Assembly: GCA_021730905.1 (NCBI GenBank)
Contig: JAKFYK010000018.1
Location: 48,481 to 112,480 of the forward strand
Origin: Betaproteobacteria bacterium
GTDB taxonomy: Bacteria > Pseudomonadota > Gammaproteobacteria > Burkholderiales > SG8-41
Reading direction: 5' to 3'
DNA: 64,000 nucleotides
The notes under the pieces were generated by a model. The model worked only from the letters and a program-made list of their open reading frames with translations, searched no databases and was not told where the DNA came from. This document shows, in pieces, positions 16 through 63,259 of this stretch (positions are counted from its first letter, which is position 1; each line of letters opens with the position of its first letter). Made by a program: the position numbers and the translations under genes.

Positions 16-30
16 AAAAACAAATACTTA
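16..30 (+). repeat. Dispersed AT-rich 15-mer, exact copy (AAAAACAAATACTTA)
   Basis: Read directly. The last base overlaps the ATG at 30. Confidence 0.9.
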
Positions 31-500
31 TGGATTATACCTTCTGGTTGTTCATCATCGCTGCGCTGATTGTATTCGCCAATCTGATGGCGTGGCTGAT
101 TCGGAAAAATTCCGCCCCAAAAACCTTCACCGGCAACGTCGATAACGCTGATCAGCCTGTCTCCTCGGAACTCAACAATTCCTTCAATATAGCGCCCGGC
201 AACGCGGAAGAAGCCGTGCGTGCGCTGTTGAATTCCGGCAACAAGATCGAAGCGATCAAGCGGGTGCGTGAACAGACGGGACTGGGATTGAAAGAAGCGA
301 AAGATCTGGTTGACGCGATGGAACAGGGCGCGCCCGTTACCATCCATGCTCATACGTCTTCATCCGCGTTTCATGGGGACCTGGACAGCGAGGCACGCAA
401 GCTCATGGCCGCTGGCCGAAAACTGGAAGCCATCAAACTGGTACGCGAGCAGAAAAGCCTTGGCCTCAAGGAAGCCAAGGATTACGTCGAACGGCTGTAG
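30..500 (+). CDS. Membrane-anchored protein with two ribosomal L7/L12 C-terminal-like repeats
   Basis: 156-aa ORF. N-terminal hydrophobic helix FWLFIIAALIVFANLMAWLI. Then two copies of K(I/L)EAIKxVREQxxLGLKEAKDxV, which resembles the L7/L12 CTD motif. Confidence 0.6.
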   Translation: MDYTFWLFIIAALIVFANLMAWLIRKNSAPKTFTGNVDNADQPVSSELNNSFNIAPGNAEEAVRALLNSGNKIEAIKRVREQTGLGLKEAKDLVDAMEQGAPVTIHAHTSSSAFHGDLDSEARKLMAAGRKLEAIKLVREQKSLGLKEAKDYVERL

Positions 501-503
501 CTT

Positions 504-2420
504 CTACGGCGCGGTCGTTCCCAACGCCAGCATCAACTGATTCAAGCGCTTCACAAACCCGGCCGGGTCTTCAAGCTGGCCGCCTTCGGCGAGCAGCGAC
601 TGATCGAACAGCACTTTCGCCAGATCGCCAAAGCGCGTTTCGTCCGCCTCATCCTTCAAGCGTTGCACCAGCGGGTGATGCGGATTGATTTCGAGGATCG
701 GTTTTGACGTCGGCACATTCTGCCCCGCGGATTTAAGCAGCCGCTCGAAATTTGCGCCCATATCGTGTTCATCGGCGACCAGGCATGCGGGTGAATCGGT
801 GAGGCGCAATGTCACGCGCACATCCTTGACGGTTTCACCCAGCGATTTCTTGATGCGTTCGAGCAACGGCTTCGAATCGCTCTCTTCCTTCTCCTGCGCT
901 TTTTTCTCGGCTTCGTCTTCCAGTTTGCCGAGCTCCAGCCGGCCTTTCGCCACTGATTGCAGCGCCTTGCCCTCGAATTCGGTGAGGTGCTGGCTCACCC
1001 ACTCGTCCACGCGTTCATGCATCAGCAACACTTCAACACCCTTCTTGCGGAACACTTCCAGATGCGGGCTGTTTTTCGCGGCGGCAAAGGTTTCCGCGGT
1101 GACGTAGTAGATTTTTTCCTGTTCCGGTTTCATGCGCGAGACATAATCCGCGAGCGACACGTCCTGCGCAACGGTGTCAGTGTGCGTGGAAGCAAAACGC
1201 AGCACTTTAGCGATGCGCTCGCGGTTGCCGTGATCCTCGACCACGCCTTCCTTGATGACCTTGCCGAATTCCTTCCAGAAGGTGGCGAATTTCTCTTTAT
1301 GGTTCTCGGCGAGGTCTTCGATCATCGACAGCACGCGCTTGACGTTGCCCGCACGCATGGCCTCAATGTCTTTTGACTCCTGGAGAATTTCGCGCGACAC
1401 GTTCAGCGGCAGATCGGCGGAGTCGATCACCCCACGCACGAACCGCAGATACACCGGCAGCAGTTGTTCGGCGTCGTCCATGATGAACACGCGCCGCACA
1501 TAGAGCTTTATGCCGCGGCGGTGCTCGCGGTCCCACAGGTCAAACGGCGCGCGCGCCGGGATGTACAGCAGTTGCGTGTATTCCTTGCGCCCCTCGACCC
1601 GGTTGTGCGAGTACGCGAGCGGCGCCTCGAAATCATGCGCCACGTGCTTGTAAAACTCGTGGTATTGCTCCTCGGTAATCTCGTTCTTGGGACGCGCCCA
1701 CAACGCACTCGCCTGATTGACGGTCTGGTCCTTGCTGGTGGTGCGGTAGACGGAGTTGTCCTTGTCCCATTCTTCTTCCTTCATCACGATGGGTAAGGTA
1801 ATGTGATCGGAATATTTACGGATGATGCCGCGCAGCCGGTTGGCGTTGGCAAGTTCATCCTCACCTTCACGCAGATGCAGCGTGACTTCCGTGCCACGGC
1901 CTTCTTTATCGAGCGCTTCGAGCGTGTACTCGCCGCCGCCATCGGATTCCCAGCGCACGCCGCTGTCAGCAGGCTGTCCCGCGCGGCGCGTCACCACGGT
2001 CACCTTGTCGGCAACCACGAACGACGAATAAAAACCCACGCCGAACTGGCCGATCAAATTGGCGTCTTTCGCCTGATCGCCGGTGAGGGCATTCAGAAAT
2101 TCGCGCGTGCCGGACTTGGCGATGGTGCCGATGTTACTGATCACTTCCTCGCGCGACATGCCGATGCCGTTGTCGGAAACGGTAATGGTGCGCGCCTTGG
2201 GATCGAACGCCACGCGTATCTTCAACTCGGCGTCGTTCTCGAACAGAGCCTTGTCCGTCAACGCTTCGAAACGCAGCTTGTCCGCCGCATCCGACGCATT
2301 GGAAATCAGCTCGCGCAGGAATATCTCCTTGTTGCTGTACAAGGAGTGAATCATCAGGTTGAGCAGTTGTTTGACTTCGGCCTGAAAGCCGTGGGTTTCT
2401 TTAGTGGCAGTCGCGGTCAT
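504..2420 (-). CDS. htpG: Molecular chaperone HtpG (Hsp90)
   Basis: 638 aa. Hsp90 ATPase motifs [29 protein letters not shown]. Full-length. Confidence 0.95.
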
Positions 2421-2434
2421 GATAAATATCCAAT

Positions 2435-2449
2435 AAAAACATATACTTA
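2435..2449 (+). repeat. Dispersed 15-mer, 14/15 variant (AAAAACATATACTTA)
   Basis: Read directly. Lies between the htpG -10 element and the htpG ATG, so probably in the 5' UTR, in reverse orientation relative to htpG. Confidence 0.8.
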
Positions 2450-2462
2450 AGTATGTGAAAGT

Positions 2463-2491
2463 TAAATGGGGGCAGTTCGCTTGAATTCAAG
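2463..2491 (-). promoter_or_regulatory. RpoH (sigma-32)-type heat-shock promoter of htpG
   Basis: Minus strand reads CTTGAA, a 13-nt spacer, then CCCCCATTTA about 45 nt upstream of the htpG ATG. This matches the CTTGAA-N13-15-CCCCATNT consensus. Confidence 0.6.
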
Positions 2492-2573: not shown

Positions 2574-3965
2574 TTAGCCTGCTTTACGCGCCTCACTCCC
2601 GCGCGCGAACAGCAGAACCACACCGCCGACCGCGAGTACCGCCAGACCCACCAGCGCATGGCCTTTGTGATAAGTCAGGCTGGAATACAGCAGGTAGCCG
2701 CACATGCACACAAAGATCGCGGGTAATACCGGATACAGGGGCACGCGGAAAGGCCGCGGCGCGTTTGGCTCTTTCGAACGTAATATGAAGAGCGCGATGC
2801 CTATCAACAGGAAGAATCCCCAAAATACCGGCAGCGAATATTCCACGAGCCCCTTGAAGCCGGCTTTCTGGAACGCGCCCAGGCCCACCAGTGCCAGCGC
2901 GATTACGCCCTGCACCACCATCGCGTTGCGCGGCGAGCCGCTCGCCTCATCCCAGCGACCGATATAACTGAAGATCGGCCAATCCTTGCCCAGCGCATAG
3001 TTCGAGCGCGCGCCCACAATGATCGAACCGTTTACCGAGGTCAGCGCGGCAATGGCAATCATGATCGAGATCAGCTTTTCGCCCCCCGTACCCCATACGG
3101 CCTTCAGCAAATCAGCCGCTACTGCATCCGAGCGCGCCATCGCGTAAAGGCCGAGGCCTTTCATATAGGCCAGCGCGATCAATACGTACAACACGGCCAC
3201 CACGCTGATAGCGATCAGCAGCGCACGCACCATGTTGCGTTCGCGGTCGCGCACTTCGGCCGAGATATAGGCCGCATCATTCCAGCCGCCATAGGTAAAC
3301 AGCACAAACAGCATCGCAGTACCCAGACCCGCGCCCATGTACCACGGCCCGCTGCCGGTTGCAGCAGCCACCACGGGCGGAGGTGGCGGCGGTGAGGCCA
3401 GCACAAGTCCCGCGATGATAATCAACAACAATCCGCCGACTTCCAGCACCGTGAAAATATTCTGTGTAACCTTGCCTTCCTGTATCCCGCGGTAGTTCAC
3501 CGCCGTGAGCACCAGTACCACCATCGCGGCCCAAATCGCCGAAGAATACTCTCCGAGATTCCACACACGCGACATGTAATCGCCGAACAGGTACGCAAAC
3601 ACCGCAATCGAGCCGGCGACGATGACGGTCATGCGTGCCCAGCCATACAGAAACGCCAGCGCGCGGCCGTAGGCGCGCTGTATGAAGTGATACTCGCCGC
3701 CTGCCGAGGGAAAAGCCGTCGCCAGTTCGCCATAGCACAACGCGCCGATGATGGAGAAGACGCCACCCGCGATCCATACGGCAACAACCAGTGTTTCATC
3801 GTTCATGGCGCCGGCCACGATGGCCGGCGTACCAAACACGCCTGCACCAACAATCAGGCCGACAATCATGGCACAGGCATCAAACACGGAAAGCGACGGC
3901 TTCGGCTGCGCGCCTGTCTCCACGGTGGGCTGATGTGCGCTCATATTATTTTCCGCCCGGCTCAT
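2574..3965 (-). CDS. APC-family amino acid permease
   Basis: 463 aa with about 12 hydrophobic segments and APC-like composition. Overlaps the 3' end of paralog 1 by 20 nt, so likely co-transcribed. Alternative start at 3944. Confidence 0.8.
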   Translation of the reverse strand: MSRAENNMSAHQPTVETGAQPKPSLSVFDACAMIVGLIVGAGVFGTPAIVAGAMNDETLVVAVWIAGGVFSIIGALCYGELATAFPSAGGEYHFIQRAYGRALAFLYGWARMTVIVAGSIAVFAYLFGDYMSRVWNLGEYSSAIWAAMVVLVLTAVNYRGIQEGKVTQNIFTVLEVGGLLLIIIAGLVLASPPPPPPVVAAATGSGPWYMGAGLGTAMLFVLFTYGGWNDAAYISAEVRDRERNMVRALLIAISVVAVLYVLIALAYMKGLGLYAMARSDAVAADLLKAVWGTGGEKLISIMIAIAALTSVNGSIIVGARSNYALGKDWPIFSYIGRWDEASGSPRNAMVVQGVIALALVGLGAFQKAGFKGLVEYSLPVFWGFFLLIGIALFILRSKEPNAPRPFRVPLYPVLPAIFVCMCGYLLYSSLTYHKGHALVGLAVLAVGGVVLLFARGSEARKAG

Positions 3966-4857
3966 CTTGCGCGCGTATCAGTTCACCACGCTTGATGCGT
4001 TTGGCTGTCCATGTCGCCTGACGCGCGGTAGCGCCCTCTCCAATGCGCACGGTACCGGTGATGGTCTCACCCGCCAGCTGGCCCTGAAACTCGTGACGCT
4101 CGATTTTTTGCGCGCCTTTGCCGGTCAGTGAAAATCTCACCTGTTCGCCAATCATCTTGCCGCGCATTTCACCGTTGACGCCGCCGGCCTGCGCATTGCC
4201 GTCGATGTTCTGGAAAAACTGCTCCAAGTCGAACTCGTACGGCACATCCTTGCCGCCGACGCTGATCGTGGATTGCCATTTGCCCGCAGCCAGCGCCGGC
4301 ACCACCCAGTAGAACACGTAGCTGATGCCGGGATTGCCCACTTTTTTCTCGGGAACCACCAGCGTTTTTTGCTCGTCCGGATACCAGTCGCCCATGCTGT
4401 AATCGTGCGCGACCACGCGCGTGCCGGGTTTAAGGCGCATGATTTTCGGGCGCAGCCTGAGATTCATCTCCGGCAGCAGATACGTCGATACCACCGTCGC
4501 CTCGGAAAAATCTGTCTCGAACAGATTTTGTTCACGAAACGTCACGCGATCGGCGACGTTTTCCTTGCGCGCGTTTTCATTGGCAAGTTTAAGCAAAAAG
4601 GTATCGAGATCGACGCCCAGCGCCTTGGCGCCGTACTTCTTGGCGGCGGTAATCACAAAGCGCCCATCGCCTGATCCGAGATCGATCAGATAATCCGCCT
4701 TGTTGACCTTCGCCATCATCAACATTTCATCCACCACGATTTGTGGTGTCGGCACATACACCACATCGCCCACGCCGGTTTGCGCCCACGACGGCGCCAC
4801 CGCGACAACCGCCGCCACAACAACCACCAACGCCCGTACCTGCTTCAGTAATTTCAT
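3946..4857 (-). CDS. Exported class I SAM-MTase-fold protein plus C-terminal module, paralog 1 of 8
   Basis: Start taken at MKLLKQVRALVVVVAAVVAVAPSWA/Q (signal-like). Motifs YVPTPQIVVDEML, LIDLGSGDGRFVITAAKKYG, GVDLD, LKPGTRVVAHDY. ATGA overlap with the paralog 2 stop. Confidence 0.8.
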   Translation of the reverse strand: MKLLKQVRALVVVVAAVVAVAPSWAQTGVGDVVYVPTPQIVVDEMLMMAKVNKADYLIDLGSGDGRFVITAAKKYGAKALGVDLDTFLLKLANENARKENVADRVTFREQNLFETDFSEATVVSTYLLPEMNLRLRPKIMRLKPGTRVVAHDYSMGDWYPDEQKTLVVPEKKVGNPGISYVFYWVVPALAAGKWQSTISVGGKDVPYEFDLEQFFQNIDGNAQAGGVNGEMRGKMIGEQVRFSLTGKGAQKIERHEFQGQLAGETITGTVRIGEGATARQATWTAKRIKRGELIRAQDEPGGK

Positions 4858-5789
4858 TGCTGCTCCCTGGTAAAAAATGTTGCCGCTACTGGGTTCCGCT
4901 CCGGCGGCTGCCCTCGACCGCCGGCAGCGGCGTCGATGAACATGCGTCCGCGTGCAGTGCGAATTGCGCGCCACGGCATCGGCACACCGTCCGTCAGCAC
5001 GCGGCCTTCCATCACGTCACCTTCCAAACGTCCGCTGAATTCCTGGCGCACACTACGACCATCGCGCTCGGTCACCACCGTAAAACTTACGCTGTCTCCG
5101 CGCACACGTGCATTGCTTATCTCGGCACGCCCGCCTGAAACCTGTCCTGCGGCAGATGCCATCTGGAAGGTCTGCTCGAAACTCGCATCGTACTCCAAAC
5201 TCATGCCGCCCACCGGCAGTTGCCAGCGCCAGCGGCCCGATACGTCCGCCGGCACCACCCAGAGAAAAATTTCACTCGATGGCGGGCCGTAGGATTTTTC
5301 CGGCACCGCGATGGTGAGCTTTTCGTCCGGCGTCCATTTGCCCATGTCAAAGTCGTGCGAAACAATGCGCGTGCCGGGCTTCAACTTGAACAGCGACGGC
5401 CGCAATCGCAGGTTCACTGCATGCAGCAGGTACATCGACACCACGCTCGCCTTGCTGATATCGGTGTCAAACAGATTGCGCGCATAAAACTCGGCGCGAT
5501 CTTTCACGCCCTCGCGTTCGGCATTGCGTCGCGCGGTACGCACCAGATTGTCATCGAGATCCACGCCGAAACCACGGGTGCCGATTCTTTTGGCGGCGGT
5601 GATCACGATACGCCCGTCGCCCGAACCGAGATCCACCAGATAATCGTTCGGCCCCACCGCTGCGAGTTTAAGCATGGCATCAACCACCACCCACGGCGTC
5701 GGCACGTAGGGCACGTCGGCGGCGCGCACGGGCGCCGCCCACAACCACAGCGCCAGTGCGGCAGTAGCGACAGGGCGCGCGGCAAGCAT
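4854..5789 (-). CDS. Exported class I SAM-MTase-fold protein plus C-terminal module, paralog 2 of 8
   Basis: Start taken at MLAARPVATAALALWLWAAPVRA/A. The ORF is open up to 5822. Motifs LVDLGSGDGRIVITAAKRIG, LKPGTRIVSHDF. TGATG overlap with the paralog 3 stop. Confidence 0.75.
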   Translation of the reverse strand: MLAARPVATAALALWLWAAPVRAADVPYVPTPWVVVDAMLKLAAVGPNDYLVDLGSGDGRIVITAAKRIGTRGFGVDLDDNLVRTARRNAEREGVKDRAEFYARNLFDTDISKASVVSMYLLHAVNLRLRPSLFKLKPGTRIVSHDFDMGKWTPDEKLTIAVPEKSYGPPSSEIFLWVVPADVSGRWRWQLPVGGMSLEYDASFEQTFQMASAAGQVSGGRAEISNARVRGDSVSFTVVTERDGRSVRQEFSGRLEGDVMEGRVLTDGVPMPWRAIRTARGRMFIDAAAGGRGQPPERNPVAATFFTREQQ

Positions 5790-6637
5790 CAAGGGGCCGC
5801 ACCCGCCCTGACGGCACGCCATGGATGCCGCGTCTGCACGCCGCCCACGCCACGGCGGAATTCACCTTCCATCACACTATCGCGCACCACGCCCTCAAAA
5901 TACATATTGGCCTCATTCTCACGGTCGGTGTTGTCGACGATGACGAAGCTCACACGGTCGCCGCGCAGCGAGGCCTGCCACAGGCCCGCCGGTGGGCGAT
6001 CCGCGACGCGTATCACGCCGTCGATCTGCTGATGCTTCTGGCGGATATCCATATCCCAGGTCTGCGCGCCCGCAGGCAACGGCAACTGCAAACGCCAGCG
6101 GCCCTGCATCTTTGCCGGCACGATCCACAGCATCACGTTCTTGCGTATGGTGACTTTGGCATCGGGTTGCCAATCGCCGAGGTCGAAGTCGTGCGCGACG
6201 ATGCGCGTGCCGGGTTTCAGCGCCAGCAATGACGGCCGCAGGCGCATGTTCACGCCGGGCAGCAGATACATGGTGATCACGCTCGCCTTGGAAAAATCGG
6301 TTTTGAACAGATCCTGCCGCAGAAACTGCACGCGCTCAGCGACGTTGGCAACGCGTGCATTCTCCTCGCTCTGGTAGATCAGGTTTTCGTCGAGATCGAC
6401 GCCAATGCCGCGCGCGCCGAATTTGCGTGCCGCCGTGATCAGGATGCGCCCGTCGCCGGAGCCGAGGTCCATCACGAAGTCATCTTTCGTCACGTTCGCC
6501 AGCCGCAGCATTTCATCGACCACTACTTGCGGCGACGGCACGAACGGCACCTCGTACGGCCATTGCGCGCGCGCGACAGTTGCCATCAGCAGCAACGCCA
6601 CCGCTGCGAATCTTAATGAAATTTTATTTAAAAACAT
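5789..6637 (-). CDS. Exported class I SAM-MTase-fold protein plus C-terminal module, paralog 3 of 8
   Basis: Signal-like MFLNKISLRFAAVALLLMATVARA/Q. Motifs VMDLGSGDGRILITAARKFG, LKPGTRIVAHDF. AT-rich first codons merge with the 15-mer variant. Confidence 0.8.
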   Translation of the reverse strand: MFLNKISLRFAAVALLLMATVARAQWPYEVPFVPSPQVVVDEMLRLANVTKDDFVMDLGSGDGRILITAARKFGARGIGVDLDENLIYQSEENARVANVAERVQFLRQDLFKTDFSKASVITMYLLPGVNMRLRPSLLALKPGTRIVAHDFDLGDWQPDAKVTIRKNVMLWIVPAKMQGRWRLQLPLPAGAQTWDMDIRQKHQQIDGVIRVADRPPAGLWQASLRGDRVSFVIVDNTDRENEANMYFEGVVRDSVMEGEFRRGVGGVQTRHPWRAVRAGAAP

Positions 6638-6644
6638 ATGCTTA
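6630..6644 (+). repeat. Dispersed 15-mer, 13/15 variant (AAAAACATATGCTTA)
   Basis: Read directly. Contains the paralog 3 start codon (on the complement) and fills most of the 12-nt gap to the paralog 4 stop. Confidence 0.7.
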
Positions 6645-6649
6645 TAATA

Positions 6650-7507
6650 TCATTGCTGAGCGGATTGCACACGCTGCGCGCGCCAGCGCTGCTCGCTTGA
6701 TTTTAGACCCACGCCATACCGTACCGTGCCTTCGACCATATCGCCACGCACCTCGCCCTCGAAACGGTAACTCACATCGTCCTCGACCAGCACGAAACTC
6801 AAGCGCTCACCGGAGAGTTGCGCTTCAAATGCCGGCAAAAATCCGCCTTGCACGCGCACCCCGCCGCGCACTTCCTGATAGCGCTGCTGTATGTCGAGCA
6901 TGAATTCGCGGCCTTTCGCCATGGGCGCGTCGATACGCCATGCGCCGGCCACGTTCGCCGGCACCACGTAGAGCATATAGGTTTTGGAAATCTGGATTTT
7001 GCGATCCGGTTTCCACTCCGCAAAACCATAATCGTGCGCCACGATGCGCGTGCCGGGTTTGAGTTCGGCCAGCAGCTTGGGCTCGAGCTTTACCACCAGC
7101 GAAGTCAACAAGTACATCGTCACCACCGTCGCCGCACGCAGATCGGCGGCAAAGATATCGCTGTGACGAAACTCGGCACGTTCGCCGACGCCGGCGCGAC
7201 GCGCGTTTTCCGTGCTCTCGCGCACCAGCGCCGCATCGAGCTCGATGCCGACGCCGCGCGCGCCGTAATCGCGGGCCGCCGCGATGACGATACGGCCGTC
7301 GCCTGAACCCAGATCGAACACCACATCGTGCGGCGTTACCCCGGCGAGGCGCAGCATTTCATCGACATTGCCGCGCGTTGAAGGAATGTAGGGCGTGGGC
7401 ACATCCAGCATGGCCGCACGCGCAGACATGCTCGCGGCAACACACAACAGCATTGCGAATCGCACGAATAGCGGCACAAGCAGCACTGTTCTCAGGACTG
7501 CGCGCAC
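6650..7507 (-). CDS. Exported class I SAM-MTase-fold protein plus C-terminal module, paralog 4 of 8
   Basis: Signal-like MRAVLRTVLLVPLFVRFAMLLCVAASMSARA/A. Motifs VFDLGSGDGRIVIAAARDYG, GIELD, LKPGTRIVAHDY. Confidence 0.8.
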   Translation of the reverse strand: MRAVLRTVLLVPLFVRFAMLLCVAASMSARAAMLDVPTPYIPSTRGNVDEMLRLAGVTPHDVVFDLGSGDGRIVIAAARDYGARGVGIELDAALVRESTENARRAGVGERAEFRHSDIFAADLRAATVVTMYLLTSLVVKLEPKLLAELKPGTRIVAHDYGFAEWKPDRKIQISKTYMLYVVPANVAGAWRIDAPMAKGREFMLDIQQRYQEVRGGVRVQGGFLPAFEAQLSGERLSFVLVEDDVSYRFEGEVRGDMVEGTVRYGVGLKSSEQRWRAQRVQSAQQ

Positions 7508-7511
7508 CGTG

Positions 7512-9349: not shown

Positions 9350-9512
9350 ACCAAACACGATGGGAACTCCTTGCAGATTCAACTTCGGCTATGACAGCGA
9401 TCACCGGCGCGCCGTTCATATTGCCTGCACCGCGCCAGCAATCCGCGCGGCTATTGCAGCTATGGTAGATTCGCGGACGACGATTATACCCGACACCGCA
9501 CTGGACACTCCG

Positions 9513-12005: not shown

Positions 12006-12041
12006 GAAAACCGCCGGAGTCTGGTTCACATGAAGTAATTA

Positions 12042-12056
12042 TAAGTATTTGTTTTT
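12042..12056 (-). repeat. Dispersed 15-mer, exact copy (plus strand reads TAAGTATTTGTTTTT)
   Basis: Read directly. Lies in the short gap between the paralog 8 stop and the paralog 7 start. Confidence 0.9.
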
Positions 12057-12061
12057 ATTTA

Positions 12062-12940
12062 CTATTTACCGATAGTCACACGCTCCGCCTGCCACTTGGC
12101 GTCTTTGCCATCGAGATTGACGACGCCGCTCATCGCGCCACCTTTGACCTTGCCGCGATAGTGATGCCGCACGGACGCGTTGCCCCAAATGGAAAAGCTG
12201 ATGTCTTCGCCATTCAACGCCACATCGGTGATGCTCATGCCGCGGGCGTTGGGCAACGCGCCGCTGACGGCATGATAATTCTGCTTGAGATCCACGTCGC
12301 GCGATACATCGGTGCCGGCCACCTTGATCTGCCAGCGTCCCGACACCTTTGCGGGAATCGTCCACAGATACAGCGTTGCGCTCGGCACGCCGTTGATCAG
12401 CTCTTTTTCCGGCACATCGAAGGTAATCCGGTCGTCGGCCTCCCAGTCGCCGAAATGATAGTCATGCGACACTACGCGTGCCCCGGGACGCAGTTCGTTG
12501 TAGATCTTGTCACGCAGATTCATCATCATCGCCGGCAGCAGATAAAGCGTTACCACCGTGGCACGCGACAGATCGGCCTTGAACACGTCCTGCGCCTGGA
12601 ATGCCGCGCGATCCCCGATACCGAATTTCTTCGCCGTGGCATTGGACAAGCGCACCAGTTCAGGATCAATTTCGATGCCCATGCCGCTGGCCTTCAGTTG
12701 CCGCGTCGCAGTGAGCACGATCACACCGTCACCGGAACCCAGATCCATTACAAAATCATTCGCACCCACGCGGCCAAAGCGCAGCATCTGATCCACCACC
12801 ACCTGCGGCGTGGGCACATAGGGTCCCCCGGTGCGTTCGATTTCCTTGACCTGCGCCTGCGCGCTTCCCGCGCACAAGGCGCCGATGAGCGCTGCCAAAA
12901 AAAATCGCCGTACGAAATGCATATTTCTGCTCCTGATCAC
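12062..12940 (-). CDS. Exported class I SAM-MTase-fold protein plus C-terminal module, paralog 8 of 8
   Basis: GTG start overlaps the upstream stop (GTGA). Alternative ATG at 12922. N-terminus MHFVRRFFLAALIGALCAGSAQA/Q has an RRxFL motif. Motifs VMDLGSGDGVIVLTATRQLK, GIEID, LRPGARVVSHDY. Confidence 0.75.
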   Translation of the reverse strand: MIRSRNMHFVRRFFLAALIGALCAGSAQAQVKEIERTGGPYVPTPQVVVDQMLRFGRVGANDFVMDLGSGDGVIVLTATRQLKASGMGIEIDPELVRLSNATAKKFGIGDRAAFQAQDVFKADLSRATVVTLYLLPAMMMNLRDKIYNELRPGARVVSHDYHFGDWEADDRITFDVPEKELINGVPSATLYLWTIPAKVSGRWQIKVAGTDVSRDVDLKQNYHAVSGALPNARGMSITDVALNGEDISFSIWGNASVRHHYRGKVKGGAMSGVVNLDGKDAKWQAERVTIGK

Positions 12941-23565: not shown

Positions 23566-23647
23566 CACATGTCAGCGAGAATGCACCGCGCAGTCACGCG
23601 AACCTTCGACAATTATTTGCACAGTGCGTCTATTAAGAATATTGTTT

Positions 23648-23662
23648 AAAAACATATAGTTA
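23648..23662 (+). repeat. Dispersed 15-mer, 13/15 variant (AAAAACATATAGTTA)
   Basis: Read directly. Lies in the intergenic region upstream of the GGDEF gene. Confidence 0.7.
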
Positions 23663-23730
23663 CAATATCCATCGGTTTTTCTGTCACCGCATCAAGCATA
23701 ATCGTCATTCAGCCATCAGCAGATAATTTC

Positions 23731-42439: not shown

Positions 42440-44157
42440 GGTACCGCCTGCCCTTTCACCATGGCATAAGTACCCGGCACTGCTGCAAGCAGTTGCTGTG
42501 TGTACGGATGCCGGGGATTCGAATAAATCTCGTCGGAATCCGCCATTTCAACGATTTCACCGTCTTTCATCACCATGACCTGATCGGACATGTATTTAAC
42601 CACGGCCAGATCATGCGAAATAAAAATGTAACTCATGCCAAACTCGTCCTGCAAATCCTGCAACAGATTCAGCAGCTGCGCCTGCACCGAGAGATCCAGG
42701 GCGGAAACCGCCTCATCGCAAATCAGCACATCCGGCTTCATCGTCAGGCAGCGCGCTATCGCGATACGCTGCCGTTGTCCGCCCGAGAACTCGTGAGGAT
42801 ACTTGAAGAACGCGGATTCCGGCAGCCCTGTTTTTTGCATGAGCTCCACCGCCATTCCAACCCGTTCCTGCTCGCCTGCGCCGATGCCGTGTATTTGCAT
42901 CGGCTCCATCAATATCTGACCGGCGGTAAAACGCGGATTCAGCGACGCATACGGATTTTGAAACACAATCTGCATACGCCGTTTGTAGGGCATGGCTTCT
43001 GCGGACGTGAGCGCCAGCAAGTCACGGCCCTCAAACAGCGCAGCGCCACTCGATGCCGGCGTAAGACGCATCAGCGTTAACGCCATCGTGGTCTTGCCCG
43101 AACCTGATTCACCGACGACACCCAGCGTTTTTCCCTTGGCCAGTTTGAATGTGGCATTGTGAAGCGCCTTGAACTCCCGCTTGCGCAGCAGGCCTTCCCG
43201 AAAATAGAAGCCTTTGGAAAGCCGGCTGACGTCGAGAATGATTGCTTCATCGCCGTGCAGGCCGCGCGGCCGTTCGGTGTCACGGCTGGGTACGGGTGAG
43301 CCACCCAGAAAATCATCCGCCACCGGCAATCGTTGCGGACGCCCTGTGAGCGGCGGGCGGCACGCCAGCAGCGCCTTGGTATAGTCGTCTTTCGGCGCGG
43401 AAAATATCTGCGCGACACTGCCCTGCTCGCGAATTTCGCCTTCGCGCATCACCACCACGTGATCCGCCACTTCCGCCACCAGACCCAGATCGTGCGTGAT
43501 AAACAGCATCGCCATCTGTCTGCGCTGCCGCAATTGCCCTAGTAACGTAAGTATTTGTTTTTGAACAGTAATATCTAGTGCTGTCGTAGGTTCGTCAGCA
43601 ATCAATAGCCTAGGTTCGCAGGCGATCGCCATTGCGATCATCACGCGCTGTTGCTGGCCGCCGGAGAGTTGATGCGGGTACGCGGATACGCGCGTTGGCG
43701 GGTCGGGGATCCCGACCTCCCGCAGCAATTCGATCGCCCGCTCGCGCGCGCGCTCGCCGCTGAGACCCAGATGTTTTTTCAGCACTTCAATCAATTGAAA
43801 GCCGATGCTGAATACCGGGTTGAGCGAGCTCATCGGCTCCTGAAACACCATCGAGATTTCCGCGCCACGCAGCGCCGTAAGTTCGCGTGGCATACTTTTC
43901 AGCAAATCGCGATTGCGATAGTGAATTGCGCTCCCCGGCAATACGCGGGCATTCGCCGCCGGCAGCAAACCCAAAATCGCCAGAGCAGTAACCGATTTTC
44001 CGCTGCCGGATTCACCCACCAGCGCCACCGTCTGGTTGGCGGAAACGTCGAAACTTGCACCCTTCACGGCATGCAGCACTGCGTCGTCGTCGAGGCGGAA
44101 ATCCACTTTCAGGTTACGCACGCTGAGCAGCGCTTCTTTGCTGTCGGTCGTAGTCAT
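42436..44157 (-). CDS. Fused double-NBD peptide-type ABC ATPase
   Basis: 573 aa. Two GESGSGK(S/T) Walker A motifs and two LSGGQ(Q/R)QR signatures. Confidence 0.85.
   Translation of the reverse strand: MTTTDSKEALLSVRNLKVDFRLDDDAVLHAVKGASFDVSANQTVALVGESGSGKSVTALAILGLLPAANARVLPGSAIHYRNRDLLKSMPRELTALRGAEISMVFQEPMSSLNPVFSIGFQLIEVLKKHLGLSGERARERAIELLREVGIPDPPTRVSAYPHQLSGGQQQRVMIAMAIACEPRLLIADEPTTALDITVQKQILTLLGQLRQRRQMAMLFITHDLGLVAEVADHVVVMREGEIREQGSVAQIFSAPKDDYTKALLACRPPLTGRPQRLPVADDFLGGSPVPSRDTERPRGLHGDEAIILDVSRLSKGFYFREGLLRKREFKALHNATFKLAKGKTLGVVGESGSGKTTMALTLMRLTPASSGAALFEGRDLLALTSAEAMPYKRRMQIVFQNPYASLNPRFTAGQILMEPMQIHGIGAGEQERVGMAVELMQKTGLPESAFFKYPHEFSGGQRQRIAIARCLTMKPDVLICDEAVSALDLSVQAQLLNLLQDLQDEFGMSYIFISHDLAVVKYMSDQVMVMKDGEIVEMADSDEIYSNPRHPYTQQLLAAVPGTYAMVKGQAVP
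43548..43562 (-). repeat. Dispersed 15-mer, exact copy inside a CDS
   Basis: Plus strand reads TAAGTATTTGTTTTT. On the coding strand it is CAA AAA CAA ATA CTT ACG, which encodes QKQILT just after Walker B. Confidence 0.9.
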
Positions 44158-46126: not shown

Positions 46127-46131
46127 GCGGG

Positions 46132-50766: not shown

Positions 50767-50786
50767 GATGCATTGCTCTCAACGAA

Positions 50787-50810: not shown

Positions 50811-50820
50811 TCAACATTAT

Positions 50821-50897
50821 TGGCGGAGTGGACGGGACTCGAACCCGCGACCCCCGGCGTGACAGGCCGGTATTCTAACCAACTGAACTACCACTCC
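50821..50897 (-). tRNA. tRNA-Asp (GTC)
   Basis: Reverse complement is GGAGTGGTAGTTCAGTTGGTTAGAATACCGGCCTGTCACGCCGGGGGTCGCGGGTTCGAGTCCCGTCCACTCCGCCA. 7-bp acceptor stem, CTGTCAC anticodon loop, encoded CCA. Confidence 0.9.
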
Positions 50898-50924
50898 CTC
50901 AACTAACTTTATTTGCCTGTTACC

Positions 50925-51000
50925 TGGTGGGTGCTGACGGGCTCGAACCGCCGACATTCGCCTTGTAAGGGCGACGCTCTACCAACTGAGCTAAGCACCC
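50925..51000 (-). tRNA. tRNA-Val (TAC)
   Basis: Reverse complement is GGGTGCTTAGCTCAGTTGGTAGAGCGTCGCCCTTACAAGGCGAATGTCGGCGGTTCGAGCCCGTCAGCACCCACCA. Confidence 0.9.
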
Positions 51001-51089
51001 GGAAAACCGCAAAGACGCGGATTTTAGCGGATTTCCAGGTATTTAGCCAAGGTCGATCATCGGTATTTCGCCGATGGCAGAACGCACAA

Positions 51090-53566: not shown

Positions 53567-53594
53567 ATATGGGGTATTAACGCCTGCATTCAAC
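53567..53594 (-). promoter_or_regulatory. RpoH (sigma-32)-type heat-shock promoter of lon
   Basis: Minus strand reads GTTGAA, a 14-nt spacer, then CCCCATAT about 55 nt upstream of the lon ATG. Confidence 0.55.
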
Positions 53595-53611
53595 CCCATA
53601 AAATATCATTT

Positions 53612-53626
53612 AGAAACAAATACTTA
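53612..53626 (+). repeat. Dispersed 15-mer, 14/15 variant (AGAAACAAATACTTA)
   Basis: Read directly. Abuts the clpX stop and lies about 20 nt upstream of the lon -35 element. Confidence 0.8.
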
Positions 53627-53627
53627 A

Positions 53628-54899
53628 TTAAACAGAGGAGCCGGAAGCCACTTTCGGCGGATCCGAATAAATCAACAGTGGGGTAGCGTCGCTGAGTATC
53701 GTGCCCTCATCAACCACCACTTTAGTCACATTGTTCAGCGACGGCAGATCAAACATCGTATTCAGCAACGTGTGTTCCAGTATAGACCTGAGACCGCGCG
53801 CACCGGTCTTGCGTTCCAGCGCGCGTTTGGCGATGGCCTTCAGCGCGGATTCCCGAATTTCGAGCTCCGCCCCTTCCATGCTGAACATCTTTTGATATTG
53901 CTTGATCAGCGCATTTTTTGGCTGCGTCAGAATCTGAATCAGCGCGGTTTCGTCGAGTTCTCCGAGCGTAGCCACCACCGGCAGACGTCCAACGAATTCC
54001 GGTATCAAACCGAACTTGATCAAATCCTCAGGCTGCACATCGCGCAGCACGCGGGTGATATCCTTGCGGTCGTCCTTGCTGCGCACTTCCGCGCCAAAGC
54101 CGATACCGCCCTTTTCGGAACGCGCGCGAATCACTTTCTCCAGACCGTCAAACGCGCCGCCGACGATAAACAGAATGTTGGTGGTATCGACCTGCACGAA
54201 CTCCTGATTGGGATGCTTGCGGCCGCCCTGCGGCGGCACCGATGCCGTGGTGCCCTCGATCAGTTTCAATAGCGCCTGCTGCACACCCTCGCCCGACACA
54301 TCACGCGTGATCGACGGGTTATCCGACTTGCGCGAGATCTTGTCGATTTCATCGATATAGACGATGCCACGCTGCGCCTTCTCGACATCGTAGTCGCACT
54401 TCTGCAACAGCTTTTGAATGATGTTTTCGACGTCTTCGCCGACATAGCCGGCTTCGGTCAGCGTAGTGGCATCTGCCATCACAAACGGCACATTCAGCAG
54501 CCGCGCCAGCGTCTGCGCCAGCAGGGTCTTGCCGGAACCAGTCGGCCCGACCAGCAGAATATTCGACTTGGCAAGTTCGATATCGTCGTTCTTGGTAATG
54601 TTTTTCAGGCGCTTGTAGTGGTTATACACAGCCACCGAAAGAATCTTTTTCGCCACGTCCTGACCGATGACGTATTGATCGAGAATGCCGCGGATCTCGT
54701 GCGGCACCGGCAAGTCGGACTTGGCGCCCTTGGCGCCCTTGTCGCCCTGGATTTCCTCGCGGATGATGTCGTTGCACAGTTCGATGCATTCATCGCAAAT
54801 GAACACCGACGGGCCCGCGATCAACTTGCGAACCTCGTGCTGGCTCTTGCCGCAGAAGGAGCAATACAGGAGTTTCTCGCCACTCGCTTTTTCCGACAT
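53628..54899 (-). CDS. clpX: ATP-dependent Clp protease ATP-binding subunit ClpX
   Basis: 423 aa. N-terminal zinc finger CSFCGK...CDEC. Walker A GPTGSGKT. Confidence 0.95.
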
Positions 54900-57034: not shown

Positions 57035-57215
57035 TGTTCGCAATGCAGCATGAAGCACCGATGCCAGACACGTATTCGGCACATCAGTCAGTCACATCCA
57101 TCGCAATAGTGCGATTGTAATATACTCGCCACTTTAACGACACCCCGCAGAGCTTGCAATTTTCTTGAACTATCCATAGCAAGCTATTGTTTAAATTAGA
57201 TGTTTTTGCAACAAG

Positions 57216-61325: not shown

Positions 61326-61341
61326 TGACGGAAAGCCAGAA

Positions 61342-62097
61342 ATGAATCTGCAACTGACCGATAAAACCGCGCTGGTCACCGGCGCCAGCCAGGGCATAGG
61401 CCGCGCCATCGCCAAGGGGCTTGCCGCCGAAGGCGTACAGACCTGCATCGTTGCGCGCCGCAAGGCGCTGCTCGATGAACTCGCCGCCGAGATCGTGGCG
61501 GCAGGCGGTAAAAAGCCGGAAATCGTGGTGATCGACGTGATGGAAACCGACGCGCCCATACGTTTGGCGCGAGCCGCTGAAAAAGCACTGGGCAAAATCG
61601 ACATCCTGATCAACAGTGCCGGCGGCAGCAAACCGGCGATACACGTCGACGCGCCCGACAGCGCGTGGGACGAATCGATGACGCTCAACTACGCGCGCGT
61701 GCGCCAGCTCACGCACGCAGTGCTGCCGGGCATGATGCAGCGCCAATGGGGCCGCATCATCAATATCAGCGGCAAATCTGAACCCGAAGCGCTGATCGCC
61801 GCCACCCCCACCAAGGCCGCGATACACGCCTGGTCAAAAGGCCTGTCACGCGAAGTGGGCCCGCGTGGCGTCACCGTCAACTGCATTCCGCCCGGACGCA
61901 TCATGAGCGAGCAGATCCGCCGCAAATACTCGCCGGAATTTCGCGCAGAACAATCGGCTAAAGAAATTCCCGTCGGCCGCTACGGCGAACCGGAAGAACT
62001 TGCGGCACTGGCAGTGTTTTTGTCATCACCCGTTGCCGCGTACATCACGGGAACGGTAATGCCGGTGGATGGTGGACTGCGGAAGTACGCATTTTAG
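61342..62097 (+). CDS. Short-chain dehydrogenase/reductase
   Basis: Start at MNLQLTDKTALVTGASQGIGRAIA. NSAG motif. Confidence 0.85.
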   Translation: MNLQLTDKTALVTGASQGIGRAIAKGLAAEGVQTCIVARRKALLDELAAEIVAAGGKKPEIVVIDVMETDAPIRLARAAEKALGKIDILINSAGGSKPAIHVDAPDSAWDESMTLNYARVRQLTHAVLPGMMQRQWGRIINISGKSEPEALIAATPTKAAIHAWSKGLSREVGPRGVTVNCIPPGRIMSEQIRRKYSPEFRAEQSAKEIPVGRYGEPEELAALAVFLSSPVAAYITGTVMPVDGGLRKYAF

Positions 62098-62136
62098 CCG
62101 CACGCTATAATCAAGTGTGTTGAGGGAGCGTTATCC

Positions 62137-63225
62137 ATGCAAACCAAAATCCCCTGCGTCATCATGCGCGGCGGCACGTCGCGTGGCCCTTTTTTTCAAA
62201 CGTCTGATCTGCCCAGCGACACAGCCACGCGCGATGCGGTGCTGCTCTCCGTGATGGGTTCGCCGCACGAGATTCAGGTGGATGGCATCGGCGGTTCGCA
62301 CTCGGTGACGAGCAAGGTGGCGATGATCAGCAAATCGCAGCGTCCCGGCGTGGATGTGGATTATCTGTTTGCGCAGGTCGAAATCAACGAGCAGCGCGTC
62401 GATACCAAACCCAATTGCGGCAACATGCTGGTGGCCGTGGGACCGTTTGCCATCGACCAGGGGCTGATTCCGGCGAAGGACGGCGAAACGCCGGTGCGCA
62501 TCTTCAACGTCAATACGCAATCGATGGTGGAAGCGATTGTGCAAACACCCGGCGGTGAGGTGAATTACGAAGGCACGGCGTCCATCGACGGCGTGCCCGG
62601 GACCGCCGCGCCCGTGGGCATCAACTTCACCGCGGCCATCGGCTCGGTGACCAAAAAACTGCTGCCGACCGGCAAGCCGCTGGATGTGATCGACGGTATG
62701 GAAGTGAGTTGCGTCGATGTAGCAATGCCGGTGATTCTGATGCGCGCGGAAGCGTTCGGCAAAACCGGGTACGAGACCGCCAACGAACTCGACGCCGATA
62801 AGGAACTGTTCCAGCGCATGGAAACGATTCGCATCAAGGCGGGTGCCATGATGGGCATGGGCGATGTGTCGAAATCCGTGGTGCCCAAGATCAGCCTGCT
62901 CGCCAAACCGCGTCACGGCGGAACTATTTCATCGCGTTTCTTCGTGCCCTACTCCTGTCATAAGGCTCACCCGGTGACGGGCACGGTGTGCCTTGCATCG
63001 GCATGTGCAATTCCAGGTACCCTTGCAGAAAAACTCACCAGCCGCGTCGAGGCACCGCAGGGCATCATCGAAATCGAACATCCGTCGGGCAAGATCGCGA
63101 TTGACCTCGATGCCGATTTCAGCAACGGCAAACAGGAGTTGCGCCGCGCCGCGCTGATACGCACCGCGCGCCGCATTTTCGAAGGCAAGGTCAATGTGCC
63201 CAAGGCAATATGGGCCGGTCAATAG
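62137..63225 (+). CDS. PrpF / 4-oxalomesaconate tautomerase family isomerase
   Basis: 362 aa. N-terminal IPCVIMRGGTSRGPFF is a hallmark of the family. Confidence 0.75.
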   Translation: MQTKIPCVIMRGGTSRGPFFQTSDLPSDTATRDAVLLSVMGSPHEIQVDGIGGSHSVTSKVAMISKSQRPGVDVDYLFAQVEINEQRVDTKPNCGNMLVAVGPFAIDQGLIPAKDGETPVRIFNVNTQSMVEAIVQTPGGEVNYEGTASIDGVPGTAAPVGINFTAAIGSVTKKLLPTGKPLDVIDGMEVSCVDVAMPVILMRAEAFGKTGYETANELDADKELFQRMETIRIKAGAMMGMGDVSKSVVPKISLLAKPRHGGTISSRFFVPYSCHKAHPVTGTVCLASACAIPGTLAEKLTSRVEAPQGIIEIEHPSGKIAIDLDADFSNGKQELRRAALIRTARRIFEGKVNVPKAIWAGQ

Positions 63226-63244
63226 ACCTCCGCGATGCACATCA

Positions 63245-63259
63245 TAAGTATTTGTTTTT
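63245..63259 (-). repeat. Dispersed 15-mer, exact copy (plus strand reads TAAGTATTTGTTTTT)
   Basis: Read directly. Followed by AAATGTTTTTTT. Lies 18 nt upstream of the hpnE GTG. Confidence 0.9.

What the first reader, a model, noticed from the sequence alone, without database searches (positions are those of the whole stretch)
16..63259. Dispersed AT-rich 15-mer AAAAACAAATACTTA recurs at least 11 times in a GC-rich window
Seen, exact copies: 16-30 (+), 12042-12056 (-), 43548-43562 (-), 63245-63259 (-).
Seen, 14/15 copies: 2435-2449 (+), 15363-15377 (+), 32413-32427 (-), 35332-35346 (-), 53612-53626 (+).
Seen, 13/15 copies: 6630-6644 (+), 23648-23662 (+).
Weaker relatives lie at 18445-18459, 34444-34458, 57195-57207 and 21289-21304.

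The consensus is about TTAAAAACA(A/T)ATA(C/G)TTA. It is often extended by a second T-run or A-run (63260-63271, 35347-35360, 15347-15360).

Under an independent-base model with roughly 60% GC, this 15-mer (13 A/T plus 2 C) is expected far less than once in 128 kb of two-strand sequence. Four exact copies therefore cannot be chance.

Ten of the eleven copies sit in very short intergenic gaps, directly against a stop or start codon. The ATG at 30 overlaps the motif, the paralog 3 ATG lies inside it, and the dnaQ stop lies inside it. Orientation relative to flanking genes and to the window is mixed. There is no GC-rich stem, so it is not a terminator or a classical REP. Several flanked genes lack a recognisable Shine-Dalgarno sequence.

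Inference, with candidates I cannot separate: a binding site for a nucleoid-associated or global regulator; a UP-element or AU-rich translation-enhancer module; or an uptake-signal-like sequence. The last idea fits the intragenic copy that is accommodated by codon choice.
Basis: seen in the sequence. Interest (0 to 1): 0.65.

Follow-up and report, generated by a model that had tools for sequence, protein, structure and literature searches.

The report
Repeated IHF-type DNA-bending sites
The recurring AT-rich word is real: it is the core of a ~36-bp element built, base for base, like a strong binding site for the DNA-bending protein IHF, and it is scattered through the gene junctions of an uncultured group of GC-rich Burkholderiales, probably to shape the chromosome and not to control particular genes.

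Summary
Observation confirmed. The window holds 12 copies at up to 2 mismatches, against 0.03 expected. A weight matrix trained only on other genomes finds 13 strong and 2 weaker sites. One listed copy (21290) is not supported.

The 15-mer is the core of a ~36-bp AT-rich element. All 11 AT-rich islands of the window are copies. The element carries the four published IHF-site elements in the exact register of phage lambda H': A-tract, AA/TT kink step, WATCAA-like hexamer, and TTR.

Copies occur in tandem, divergent and convergent spacers in the same proportions as spacers in general. They lie in both orientations and have no flanking stems or target duplications. One sits in a conserved protein segment with no indel. 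That argues against a promoter, UP element, terminator, RNA element or transposon as the general function.

Hits fell mainly in uncultured betaproteobacterial MAGs. A fully syntenic sister lineage and 479 kb of other relatives have none.

In this window the sites are more evenly spaced than chance. This is weaker in other genomes.

Best reading (0.55): high-affinity IHF-type architectural sites. Binding is inferred, not shown. An uptake signal is not excluded.

New lead: the motif-bearing lineage lacks the HU-beta gene next to lon.

The parts
2..38 (+). Element copy (core 16-30); its last bases form the ATG of the 156-aa L12-domain gene
   Evidence: exact match, 48.8 bits; identical copy at the orthologous place in L197 and a variant in L196
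2421..2457 (+). Element copy (core 2435-2449) between the sigma-32-type promoter (2464-2491, minus strand) and the htpG start (2420); it fills most of the htpG leader, antisense to the gene
   Evidence: 35.6 bits; position kept in L196 and L197; promoter coordinates
6616..6652 (+). Element copy (core 6630-6644) filling the 12-bp gap between two paralogous methyltransferase genes; the start codon at 6637 lies inside it
   Evidence: 36.0 bits; orthologous copies at L196:5781 and L197:5817
12034..12070 (-). Element copy (core 12042-12056) in a divergent spacer
   Evidence: 44.5 bits
15349..15385 (+). Element copy (core 15363-15377) between the tctA stop and the start of an MFS transporter gene
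   Evidence: 40.5 bits
18437..18473 (-). Element copy (core 18445-18459) filling the 24-bp gap between two tctC paralogues
23634..23670 (+). Element copy (core 23648-23662) in a divergent spacer (dehydrogenase / diguanylate cyclase)
   Evidence: 36.1 bits
27913..27949 (+).
   Evidence: 27.2 bits; gene identity; codons
32405..32441 (-). Element copy (core 32413-32427) overlapping the dnaQ stop codon
   Evidence: 43.9 bits; dnaQ identity
34446..34458 (+). Bare AATCAAATAATTG, a perfect WATCAANNNNTTR without the A-tract or AT-rich flanks; a doubtful member
   Evidence: Sequence read; below 8 bits
35324..35360 (-). Element copy (core 35332-35346) between gloB and mltD
   Evidence: 43.3 bits
37913..37949 (+). 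Degenerate intragenic copy (core 37927-37941) in the ABC ATPase gene 36907-38493, at the same protein position as the 43548 copy in its paralogue
   Evidence: 19.3 bits; GC3 of the patch 0.41 against 0.69 for the gene
43540..43576 (-). Exact intragenic copy (core 43548-43562) encoding ..VQKQILT.. just after Walker B in the ABC ATPase gene 42436-44157
   Evidence: exact match; gapless alignment to solved DppD chains; (GC3 of the patch 0.32 against 0.66)
53598..53634 (+). Element copy (core 53612-53626) starting 1 nt after the clpX stop and abutting the -35 side of the conserved sigma-32-type lon promoter (53567-53594, minus strand)
   Evidence: 34.8 bits; kept in L319 and L320, absent from L321, L322 and 80 more distant relatives
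57172..57208 (-). Weak copy (core 57180-57194; AAACAA-TAGC-TTG) upstream of tig
   Evidence: 15.2 bits; orthologous weak copies at L320:6267 and L321:6342
63237..63273 (-). Element copy (core 63245-63259) between the prpF-like gene and an amine-oxidase-like gene
   Evidence: 43.4 bits; copies at the matching gene junction in L319:345 and L321:134, and beside the same amine-oxidase gene in L320:3744, where the prpF-like gene is absent

Best explanation
The 15-mer is the conserved half of a ~36-bp, non-palindromic, AT-rich element. The element is a high-affinity binding site of the IHF (DNABII) type. One heterodimer would kink the DNA at two AA/TT steps 9 bp apart. [quoted passage not shown]

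In this uncultured Burkholderiales lineage such sites lie every 4.5-10 kb, wherever a gene junction offers room, in either orientation. Occasionally they are written into coding sequence by codon choice. Their main role is therefore architectural (bending and compaction, perhaps domain punctuation), with only incidental effects on neighbouring promoters.

Shown here: the anatomy, the distribution, the clade limits and the positional conservation.

Inferred: that IHF or a close DNABII relative is the binder, and that the purpose is architectural.
For: (1) Anatomy. In 84 copies from GC-rich genomes the non-ascertained flanks show an A-tract at W-14..W-9, an AT-only step at W-5/W-4 and AT-richness up to 8 bp beyond the core. 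Background GC resumes outside ~36 bp.

(2) Match to the published IHF definition (WATCAA, TTR 4 bp on, two AA steps 9 bp apart, a 4-6 A tract in the 5' half; PMC1874591; bioRxiv 10.1101/382655), in the same register as lambda H' read from NC_001416. Across 147 sites the hexamer is AAACAA in 126 and AATCAA in 11. TTR is TTA in 144. The kink step is AA in 89, TT in 48 and AT in 10. Four or more consecutive As occur in 91.

(3) The commonest variant at the one deviating position restores a perfect WATCAANNNNTTR.

(4) A shuffled consensus meets all four elements in register with at most 1 mismatch in 0.7% of trials, and perfectly in 0.04%.

(5) It is not tied to gene expression. Intergenic copies split 54 tandem, 19 divergent and 18 convergent, against a baseline of 242, 95 and 86. 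Orientation is 30 antisense to 24 sense. In the window the strand split is 7 plus to 6 minus.

(6) It is selected at the DNA level. The 43548 copy lies in a gaplessly aligned conserved ATPase segment written in AT-ending codons. Sites are kept in place in relatives with 90-95% identical HtpG or Lon while the flanking spacer diverges.

(7) It accounts for essentially all AT-rich islands: 11 of 11 in the window, and 37 of 47 non-ascertained islands in clade loci at 27 bits or more. Random AT-rich sequence reaches 25 bits in 2-7% of trials. Motif-less relatives have 1 island in 415 kb.

(8) Spacing in the window is more even than chance: CV 0.44-0.50, no gap under 2.4 kb, P 0.0005-0.006. A weaker deficit of short distances appears in other genomes: 18 against 25.2 expected, P 0.02.
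Against: - No binding, ChIP or transcript data exist for this uncultured organism.
- The main form has A where the consensus has T in WATCAA.
- Information content is far above that of ordinary IHF sites. The N4 (ATAS) and other non-contact positions are conserved too, which IHF alone does not explain.
- There is no association with sigma-54 promoters (0 in the window; 1 of 26 candidates).
- Even spacing rests on 13-15 sites with thresholds chosen after seeing the scores. An unverified first-reader list for another window of this genome (e1-2811883) shows gaps from 1 to 25 kb.
Confidence: 0.55

Rival explanations
1. The element is the site of a different, lineage-specific DNA-binding protein. 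Candidates are another nucleoid protein, an H-NS-like silencer nucleation site, or a novel factor. The likeness to IHF sites would then be partly coincidental.
For: The motif is confined to one lineage and absent from a fully syntenic sister. Non-contact positions (ATAS, TAA) are conserved beyond what IHF needs. The main form deviates from WATCAA at the T.
Against: The four-element match in exact register has a chance probability of about 0.7%. The main variant restores the canonical T. A non-palindromic ~36-bp site fits a heterodimer that wraps DNA, and fits typical homodimeric regulators poorly. H-NS-type proteins need longer AT tracts and do not conserve one sequence (established knowledge).
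Confidence: 0.2
2. The element is a DNA uptake signal, analogous to DUS or USS. It would have accumulated by uptake bias plus recombination in a naturally competent lineage.
For: Over-representation is extreme and falls steeply with mismatch load: about 2e5, 6e3 and 1e2 for 0, 1 and 2 mismatches, as reported for DUS and USS (PMC1939737). The motif is clade-specific. Copies arise in place by point changes inside genes. Orientation is neutral.
Against: - 77% of copies are intergenic although 85% of the DNA is coding.
- Density is about 1 per 4.5-10 kb, lower than the roughly 1 per kb I recall for known uptake sequences (own knowledge).
- The model gives no reason for a base-for-base IHF-site architecture.
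- Competence of the organism is unknown.
Confidence: 0.07
3. The element is a small selfish or mobile repeat (MITE-, REP- or REPIN-like) that spreads by transposition.
For: There are many near-identical copies in intergenic DNA. The clpX-lon copy is absent from relatives.
Against: There is no excess of flanking direct repeats (9.0% against 6.8% null) or inverted repeats (8.3% against 8.8%). There are no stems. The intragenic copy has no indel. The same word stays sharp across dozens of species, and positions are conserved.
Confidence: 0.05
4. The element is a gene-expression signal: a promoter or UP element, an AU-rich translation enhancer, or a terminator.
For: Copies abut start codons, and several downstream genes seem to lack a Shine-Dalgarno sequence. 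TATAAT-like words often follow the core. One copy lies just upstream of the lon sigma-32 promoter and one lies in the htpG leader.
Against: The share of copies in convergent spacers equals the baseline, and orientation is neutral. The T at the last -10 position is not conserved (30 of 84). Promoter-like hits are not enriched (7 against 7.1 expected), and no terminator-like stems lie at the copies. There is no Rfam match. Position relative to the two sigma-32 promoters is inconsistent: upstream of one and downstream of the other.
Confidence: 0.04

Closest known systems
Canonical four-element IHF site, type lambda attP H' (NC_001416 27745-27780)
   Same: Same length class (~35 bp) and the same four elements in the same register: A-tract at W-14..W-9, AA/TT kink step at W-5/W-4, the hexamer, N4, then TTR.
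   Different: The main form reads AAACAA instead of WATCAA. The N4 and other non-contact bases are also conserved. It is present in hundreds of near-identical copies per genome, whereas H' is a single site serving one recombination reaction. Binding is untested.
RIP / BIME-1 elements of E. coli (repetitive IHF-binding palindromic elements)
   Same: A repeated intergenic element that carries an IHF site and has a suspected role in nucleoid structure. BIMEs have been discussed as domain barriers (PMC6907758).
   Different: In those elements the IHF site lies between GC-rich REP palindromes (own knowledge). Here there are no palindromes or stems. The site stands alone, also occurs in divergent spacers and inside genes, and is the only kind of AT-rich island in the genome.
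DNA uptake sequences (DUS of Neisseriaceae, USS of Pasteurellaceae)
   Same: Clade-specific, highly over-represented, orientation-neutral, with a steep fall in frequency with mismatches, and built in place by point mutation (PMC1939737).
   Different: Strongly intergenic, sparser, evenly spaced in the window, and with an IHF-site architecture. No evidence of competence.

Membership tests
IHF binding site (canonical four-element type) | WATCAA/WATCAR hexamer near the centre of the site | tested here: inconclusive
   AAACAA in 126 of 147 sites (5 of 6 positions, A in place of T); canonical AATCAA in 11 of 147.
IHF binding site (canonical four-element type) | TTR four base pairs 3' of the hexamer | tested here: met
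   TTA in 144 and TTG in 1 of 147 sites. The central T is the base whose change costs 100-250-fold in affinity (10.1101/382655).
IHF binding site (canonical four-element type) | Two AA (or TT) steps 9 bp apart, the proline intercalation sites | tested here: met
   The step at W-5/W-4 is AA in 89, TT in 48 and AT in 10, never containing G or C. It lies 9 bp upstream of the AA of the hexamer. Definition from PMC1874591.
IHF binding site (canonical four-element type) | A-tract of 4-6 A in the 5' half | tested here: met
   Positions W-14..W-9 are A in 47-77 of 84 non-ascertained flanks. Four or more consecutive As occur in 91 of 147 sites. The register is the same as the AAAAAA of lambda H'.
IHF binding site (canonical four-element type) | Bound and bent by IHF | not testable with these tools
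   The organism is uncultured, and no ChIP, DAP-seq or transcript data exist for it.
IHF binding site (canonical four-element type) | The host encodes IhfA and IhfB | not tested
No DNABII gene lies in the window or in the clade loci held.
DNA uptake sequence (DUS/USS) | Strong clade-specific over-representation that falls with mismatch load | tested here: met
   Observed/expected about 2.4e5, 5.6e3 and 1.3e2 for 0, 1 and 2 mismatches. Absent from 479 kb of relatives.
DNA uptake sequence (DUS/USS) | Large share of copies inside coding regions | tested here: not met
   31 of 138 copies are in genes although 85% of the DNA is coding.
DNA uptake sequence (DUS/USS) | Preferential uptake by competent cells | not testable with these tools
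   No culture is available.
REP / BIME | GC-rich imperfect palindrome forming a stem-loop | tested here: not met
   No excess of inverted repeats across the element (8.3% against 8.8% null). No terminator-like stems at the copies.
MITE / transposon-derived repeat | Terminal inverted repeats and target-site duplication; copies are insertions | tested here: not met
   One search finds no direct or inverted repeat excess. The intragenic copy aligns without a gap to homologues.
Sigma-70 promoter / UP element | Fixed orientation and position upstream of genes; conserved -10 T and a -35 hexamer | tested here: not met
   18 of 91 intergenic copies lie between convergent genes, and orientation is 30:24. 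The -7 T equivalent is present in 30 of 84. Promoter-like hits number 7 against 7.1 expected.
IHF-assisted sigma-54 promoter | Site 40-100 bp upstream of a TGGCAC-N5-TTGCW promoter | tested here: not met
   No such promoter in the window. Only 1 of 26 candidates in 660 kb has a copy nearby.

The most novel reading that the evidence does not exclude
On the branch where this lineage lost the HU-beta gene from its canonical place beside lon, it acquired a genome-wide, roughly evenly spaced array of near-maximal-affinity IHF-type U-turn sites. Where no spacer is free, the sites are written into coding sequence. On this reading a sequence-specific bender with a dedicated site code has taken over part of the job that non-specific HU does elsewhere. 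The result would be an encoded 'punctuation' of the bacterial chromosome into loops of a few kb.
Probability: 0.2. Interest if true: 0.8.

Novelty: new variant of a known kind. Interest (0 to 1): 0.6.

Why it matters
IHF sites are normally weakly defined and studied one promoter or recombination site at a time. Here a whole lineage carries one stereotyped, very strong-looking site as its only kind of AT-rich island. It lies at gene junctions of every type and even inside conserved genes.

If IHF binds these sites, the genomes would be a natural experiment in sequence-encoded nucleoid architecture. They would also supply a set of predicted super-sites for bending studies.

There is a practical side too. 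The element distorts gene calling, because starts and stops fall inside it. It also explains the 'rare-codon patches' seen in these metagenome-assembled genomes (MAGs).

Tried and rejected
- **Whole-genome count and file.** Genome-wide frequency, replichore plots and a search for ihfA, ihfB and hup genes could not be done.
- **Transcript ends.** Only DNA metagenomes hold this organism. RNA runs hold no more than 5% of the words, that is, conserved clpX of other species.
- **Sigma-54 link.** Not found.
- **clpX scan of metagenome contigs.** It returned 80 relatives (77-91% ClpX identity). None has the motif, so they were useful only as a negative control.
- **Viral contigs.** 109 of 119 hits are chance matches in AT-rich phages. 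One GC-rich phage contig has a full copy.
- **Target duplications, inverted repeats and stems.** No excess.
- **Rfam.** Only three tRNAs match.
- **Promoter and terminator scan.** No enrichment.
- **Literature search for the word.** No paper.
- **Search for an HU gene elsewhere in the lineage.** I looked for hits on the known clade contigs. None of the 120 listed hits lies on them, but 8000 candidates were scored, so this is inconclusive.
- **My early impression that copies lie antisense to transcription.** It was 6 of 7 in the window, and it vanished in the larger set at 30:24.

Full report
**Observation**

There are 4 exact copies, 5 with one mismatch and 3 with two, against 0.03 expected from dinucleotide-preserving shuffles. 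The window is 57-62% GC throughout. It is a proteobacterial chromosome segment carrying htpG, dnaQ, gloB, mltD, two dipeptide-type ABC operons and tig-clpP-clpX-lon. AAACAAATACTTA is the commonest 13-mer in the window.

I trained a weight matrix on 41 copies from other genomes that had not been selected by the search word. It scores 13 window sites at 27-49 bits and two more at 15-19 bits. Shuffled windows reach at most 7.2 bits.

- The copy at 21290 fails this test and is probably chance.
- 18445 is a full member.
- 27927 (inside a photolyase gene) and 37927 (inside an ABC ATPase gene) had been missed.
- All 11 AT-rich islands of the window (at least 26 of 30 bases A/T) are copies of this one element.

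I replaced it with collection scans.

**Distribution across organisms**

The 18-mer WTAAAAACAAATACTTAT was scanned against one genome per prokaryotic species.

- About 85 copies lie in 54-68% GC loci. Of the 80 loci whose record titles were listed, 58 are uncultured Burkholderiales or Betaproteobacteria MAGs, often with several loci per MAG.
- The chance expectation for this word in one GC-rich genome is about 1e-5.
- The remaining hits are single matches in AT-rich genomes, as expected by chance.

Runs that hold the window are drinking-water and biofilm metagenomes.

Relatives outside the lineage lack the element entirely:

- 80 clpX loci (77-91% ClpX identity, 479 kb) have no copy.
- Those of them with at least 54% GC (415 kb) hold a single AT-rich island.
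- A sister contig with Lon 86% identical and the same gene order has none in 22 kb.
- Relatives with Lon or HtpG 90-95% identical have the element.

**Anatomy**

Aligning 84 copies from GC-rich loci shows what the search word did not ascertain.

- An A-tract lies 12 to 7 bases upstream of the 15-mer (positions -9 to -4 in the numbering).
- An AT-only dinucleotide lies just before TAAAAAC.
- AT-richness continues for about 8 bases beyond the core.
- Outside roughly 36 bp the sequence returns sharply to background GC.

The published definition of a canonical IHF site has four parts: WATCAA near the centre, TTR four bases on, two AA steps nine bases apart where the prolines intercalate, and a 4-6 A tract in the 5' half (PMC1874591; bioRxiv 10.1101/382655).

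I read the lambda H' site from the phage record (aaaaaa-gcattgct-tatcaa-tttg-ttg). With W of the hexamer as reference, H' has the A-tract at W-14..W-9 and its TT step at W-5/W-4. The element has the same features at exactly those offsets.

Across 147 sites:

| Feature | Counts |
|---|---|
| Hexamer | AAACAA 126, AATCAA 11 |
| TTR | TTA 144 |
| Kink step | AA 89, TT 48, AT 10, never with G or C |
| A-tract | at least four consecutive As in 91 |

The commonest variant of the 15-mer, AAAATCAAATACTTA, turns the one deviating base into the canonical T. A shuffled consensus of the same composition meets the whole template with at most one mismatch in 0.7% of trials.

**What it is not**

I used a simple GC3-based gene call on 660 kb (the window plus the clade loci). 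Of 138 copies, 77% are intergenic although only 15% of the DNA is non-coding.

The 91 intergenic copies with both flanking genes called divide as follows:

| Spacer type | Copies | All spacers (baseline) |
|---|---|---|
| Tandem | 54 | 242 |
| Divergent | 19 | 95 |
| Convergent | 18 | 86 |

In tandem spacers 30 copies are antisense and 24 are sense to transcription. Several convergent spacers consist of the element and nothing else.

- **Promoter or UP element.** It would avoid convergent spacers.
- **Terminator.** It would avoid divergent spacers.
- **RNA element.** It would have a fixed orientation.
- **-10 box.** The TATAAT-like words after the core do not behave like one. The last T is present in only 30 of 84 copies.
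- **Consensus scan.** It finds no excess of promoters and no stems at the copies.
- **Rfam.** Only tRNAs match.
- **Sigma-54 promoters.** None in the window. Only 1 of 26 candidate sigma-54 sites in the larger set has a copy nearby.
- **Transposition.** Flanking direct and inverted repeats are at null frequency.

**Selection at the DNA level**

The exact copy at 43548 encodes ..ALDITVQKQILTLL.. just after Walker B of an ABC ATPase. This segment aligns without a gap to solved DppD chains. The patch is written in AT-ending codons, with GC3 of 0.32 against 0.66 for the gene. The paralogous ATPase has a degenerate copy at the same protein position. Copies can therefore arise in place by point substitution.

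Positions are conserved among relatives:

- The htpG leader copy, the copy at the start of the L12-domain gene and the copy between methyltransferase paralogues are at the same places in L196 and L197 (HtpG 95% and 92% identical). They differ mostly at the positions that vary across the family (positions 8, 11, 12 and 14 of the core), although the L196 copy at the L12-domain gene start also changes the C of the hexamer.
- The clpX-lon copy, the copy at the prpF-like/amine-oxidase junction (L319, L321; in L320, where the prpF-like gene is absent, a copy lies beside the same amine-oxidase gene), and even the weak copy upstream of tig recur in L319-L321.
- Four pairs of loci from the species scan are orthologous with 72-88% identical flanks, although both members were selected for the word.
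- There is also turnover. L321 lacks the clpX-lon copy.

**Relation to nearby promoters**

Both heat-shock genes keep a conserved sigma-32-type promoter (CTTGAA..CCCCAT). The element lies downstream of it at htpG, filling the leader. It lies immediately upstream of it at lon. This inconsistency fits opportunistic placement, and does not fit a regulatory module.

**Spacing**

In the window the 13 strong sites have no gap under 2.4 kb and a coefficient of variation of 0.50, or 0.44 with the two weaker sites included. Placing the same numbers of sites at random in intergenic intervals gives P = 0.006 and 0.0005 for the CV. For the minimum gap it gives below 0.001. The three intragenic copies include two in an 11-kb operon that has no spacers.

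In 39 loci of other genomes with two or more copies, 18 of 54 adjacent distances are under 2 kb. The intergenic-constrained null expects 25.2 +/- 3.3 (P = 0.02).

I treat this as moderate evidence only. The thresholds were chosen after seeing the scores. Syntenic relatives have fewer sites (2-3 strong sites in 22 kb in L319 and L320). An unverified first-reader list for another window of this genome has gaps from 1 to 25 kb. [quoted passage not shown]

**Explanation**

The best-supported reading is a high-affinity IHF-type site used for chromosome architecture.

- **Shown:** the anatomy, the register, the neutrality to gene context, the DNA-level selection and the clade limits.
- **Inferred:** the identity of the binder and the purpose.

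Weak points:

- The T-to-A deviation in the hexamer.
- The very high information content, about 40 bits over 41 positions in a set selected for at most 2 core mismatches.
- Conservation of bases that IHF is not known to read.

These leave room for a lineage-specific binder (0.2) or a drive process such as uptake bias (0.07).

E. coli is estimated to have about 3000 consensus matches and 6000 IHF dimers per growing cell (PMC6907758). Several hundred strong sites per genome is therefore plausible.

**A new lead**

They find an HU-beta gene directly after lon in about 30 motif-less relatives. The syntenic sister contig L322 also has one, called as PF00216.

The window, L319 and L321 go from lon to two tRNA genes with no DNABII gene between, followed in the window and L319 by ppiD. 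The appearance of the element and the loss of hupB from this locus therefore fall on the same branch.

This is a single evolutionary event. HU may simply sit elsewhere in these genomes. A search for it on known clade contigs was inconclusive.

**Earlier notes of this scan**

Follow-up agents on other windows of the same genome reached the same IHF-type reading. I used those notes as leads only and re-derived the register from the literature and the lambda record.

I did not reproduce a sigma-54 link. I add the following:

- the spacer-class test;
- the canonical-T variant;
- the AA/TT step statistics;
- the shuffle probability;
- the syntenic sister control;
- the spacing tests;
- the hupB observation.

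**Verdict**

The feature is real and strongly non-random. It is a new variant of a known kind: IHF sites and repeated IHF-binding elements are known, but a stand-alone, stereotyped, clade-wide site family is not described in the literature I could search. Interest 0.6.

Noticed in passing
window 50767-51089, compared with L322:12759-13031 and L115-L194: Motif-less relatives have an HU-beta gene (PF00216) directly after lon. The window, L319 and L321 go from lon to two tRNA genes with no DNABII gene (followed in the window and L319 by ppiD), so loss or relocation of hupB falls on the same branch as the appearance of the motif.
   Followed up: partly
window 2464-2491 (-) and 53567-53594 (-): Conserved sigma-32-type promoters (CTTGAA-N13/14-CCCCAT) lie upstream of htpG and lon and are kept in nearly all relatives. 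The element sits downstream of one and upstream of the other.
   Followed up: partly
window 3946-9382 and 11103-12029 (-): An array of at least six tandem paralogous SAM methyltransferase genes (DOT1/PrmA-like, weak match to protein-lysine methyltransferase) lies beside a spermine-synthase-like gene (9360-11099). They share a 20-nt word AAACCCGGCACGCGCATCGT. The array is conserved in L196 and L197.
   Followed up: partly
window 30-500 (+): A 156-aa protein has a hydrophobic N-terminus and a ribosomal L7/L12 C-terminal-like domain (PF00542 in relatives). Its start codon is formed by the end of the element. It is conserved next to htpG in L196 and L197.
   Followed up: no
L305:5890-6010: The only GC-rich viral contig with a full copy (44 bits) carries it in a ~120-bp AT-rich spacer just downstream of a lambda-type large terminase (gpA) gene. 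This recalls the IHF site in lambda cosB and may point to a phage of this lineage.
   Followed up: partly
window 36907-47949 (-): An 11-kb run of eight abutting or overlapping ABC-transport genes has no spacers. Both of its two-domain ATPase genes carry an AT-rich patch at the same protein position, just after Walker B of the first domain.
   Followed up: partly
L115-L122, 40-110 nt after the clpX stop: In motif-less relatives the stretch between clpX and the lon promoter is GC-rich with hairpin-like repeats. In the window that stretch is replaced by the AT-rich element and no hairpin remains.
   Followed up: no
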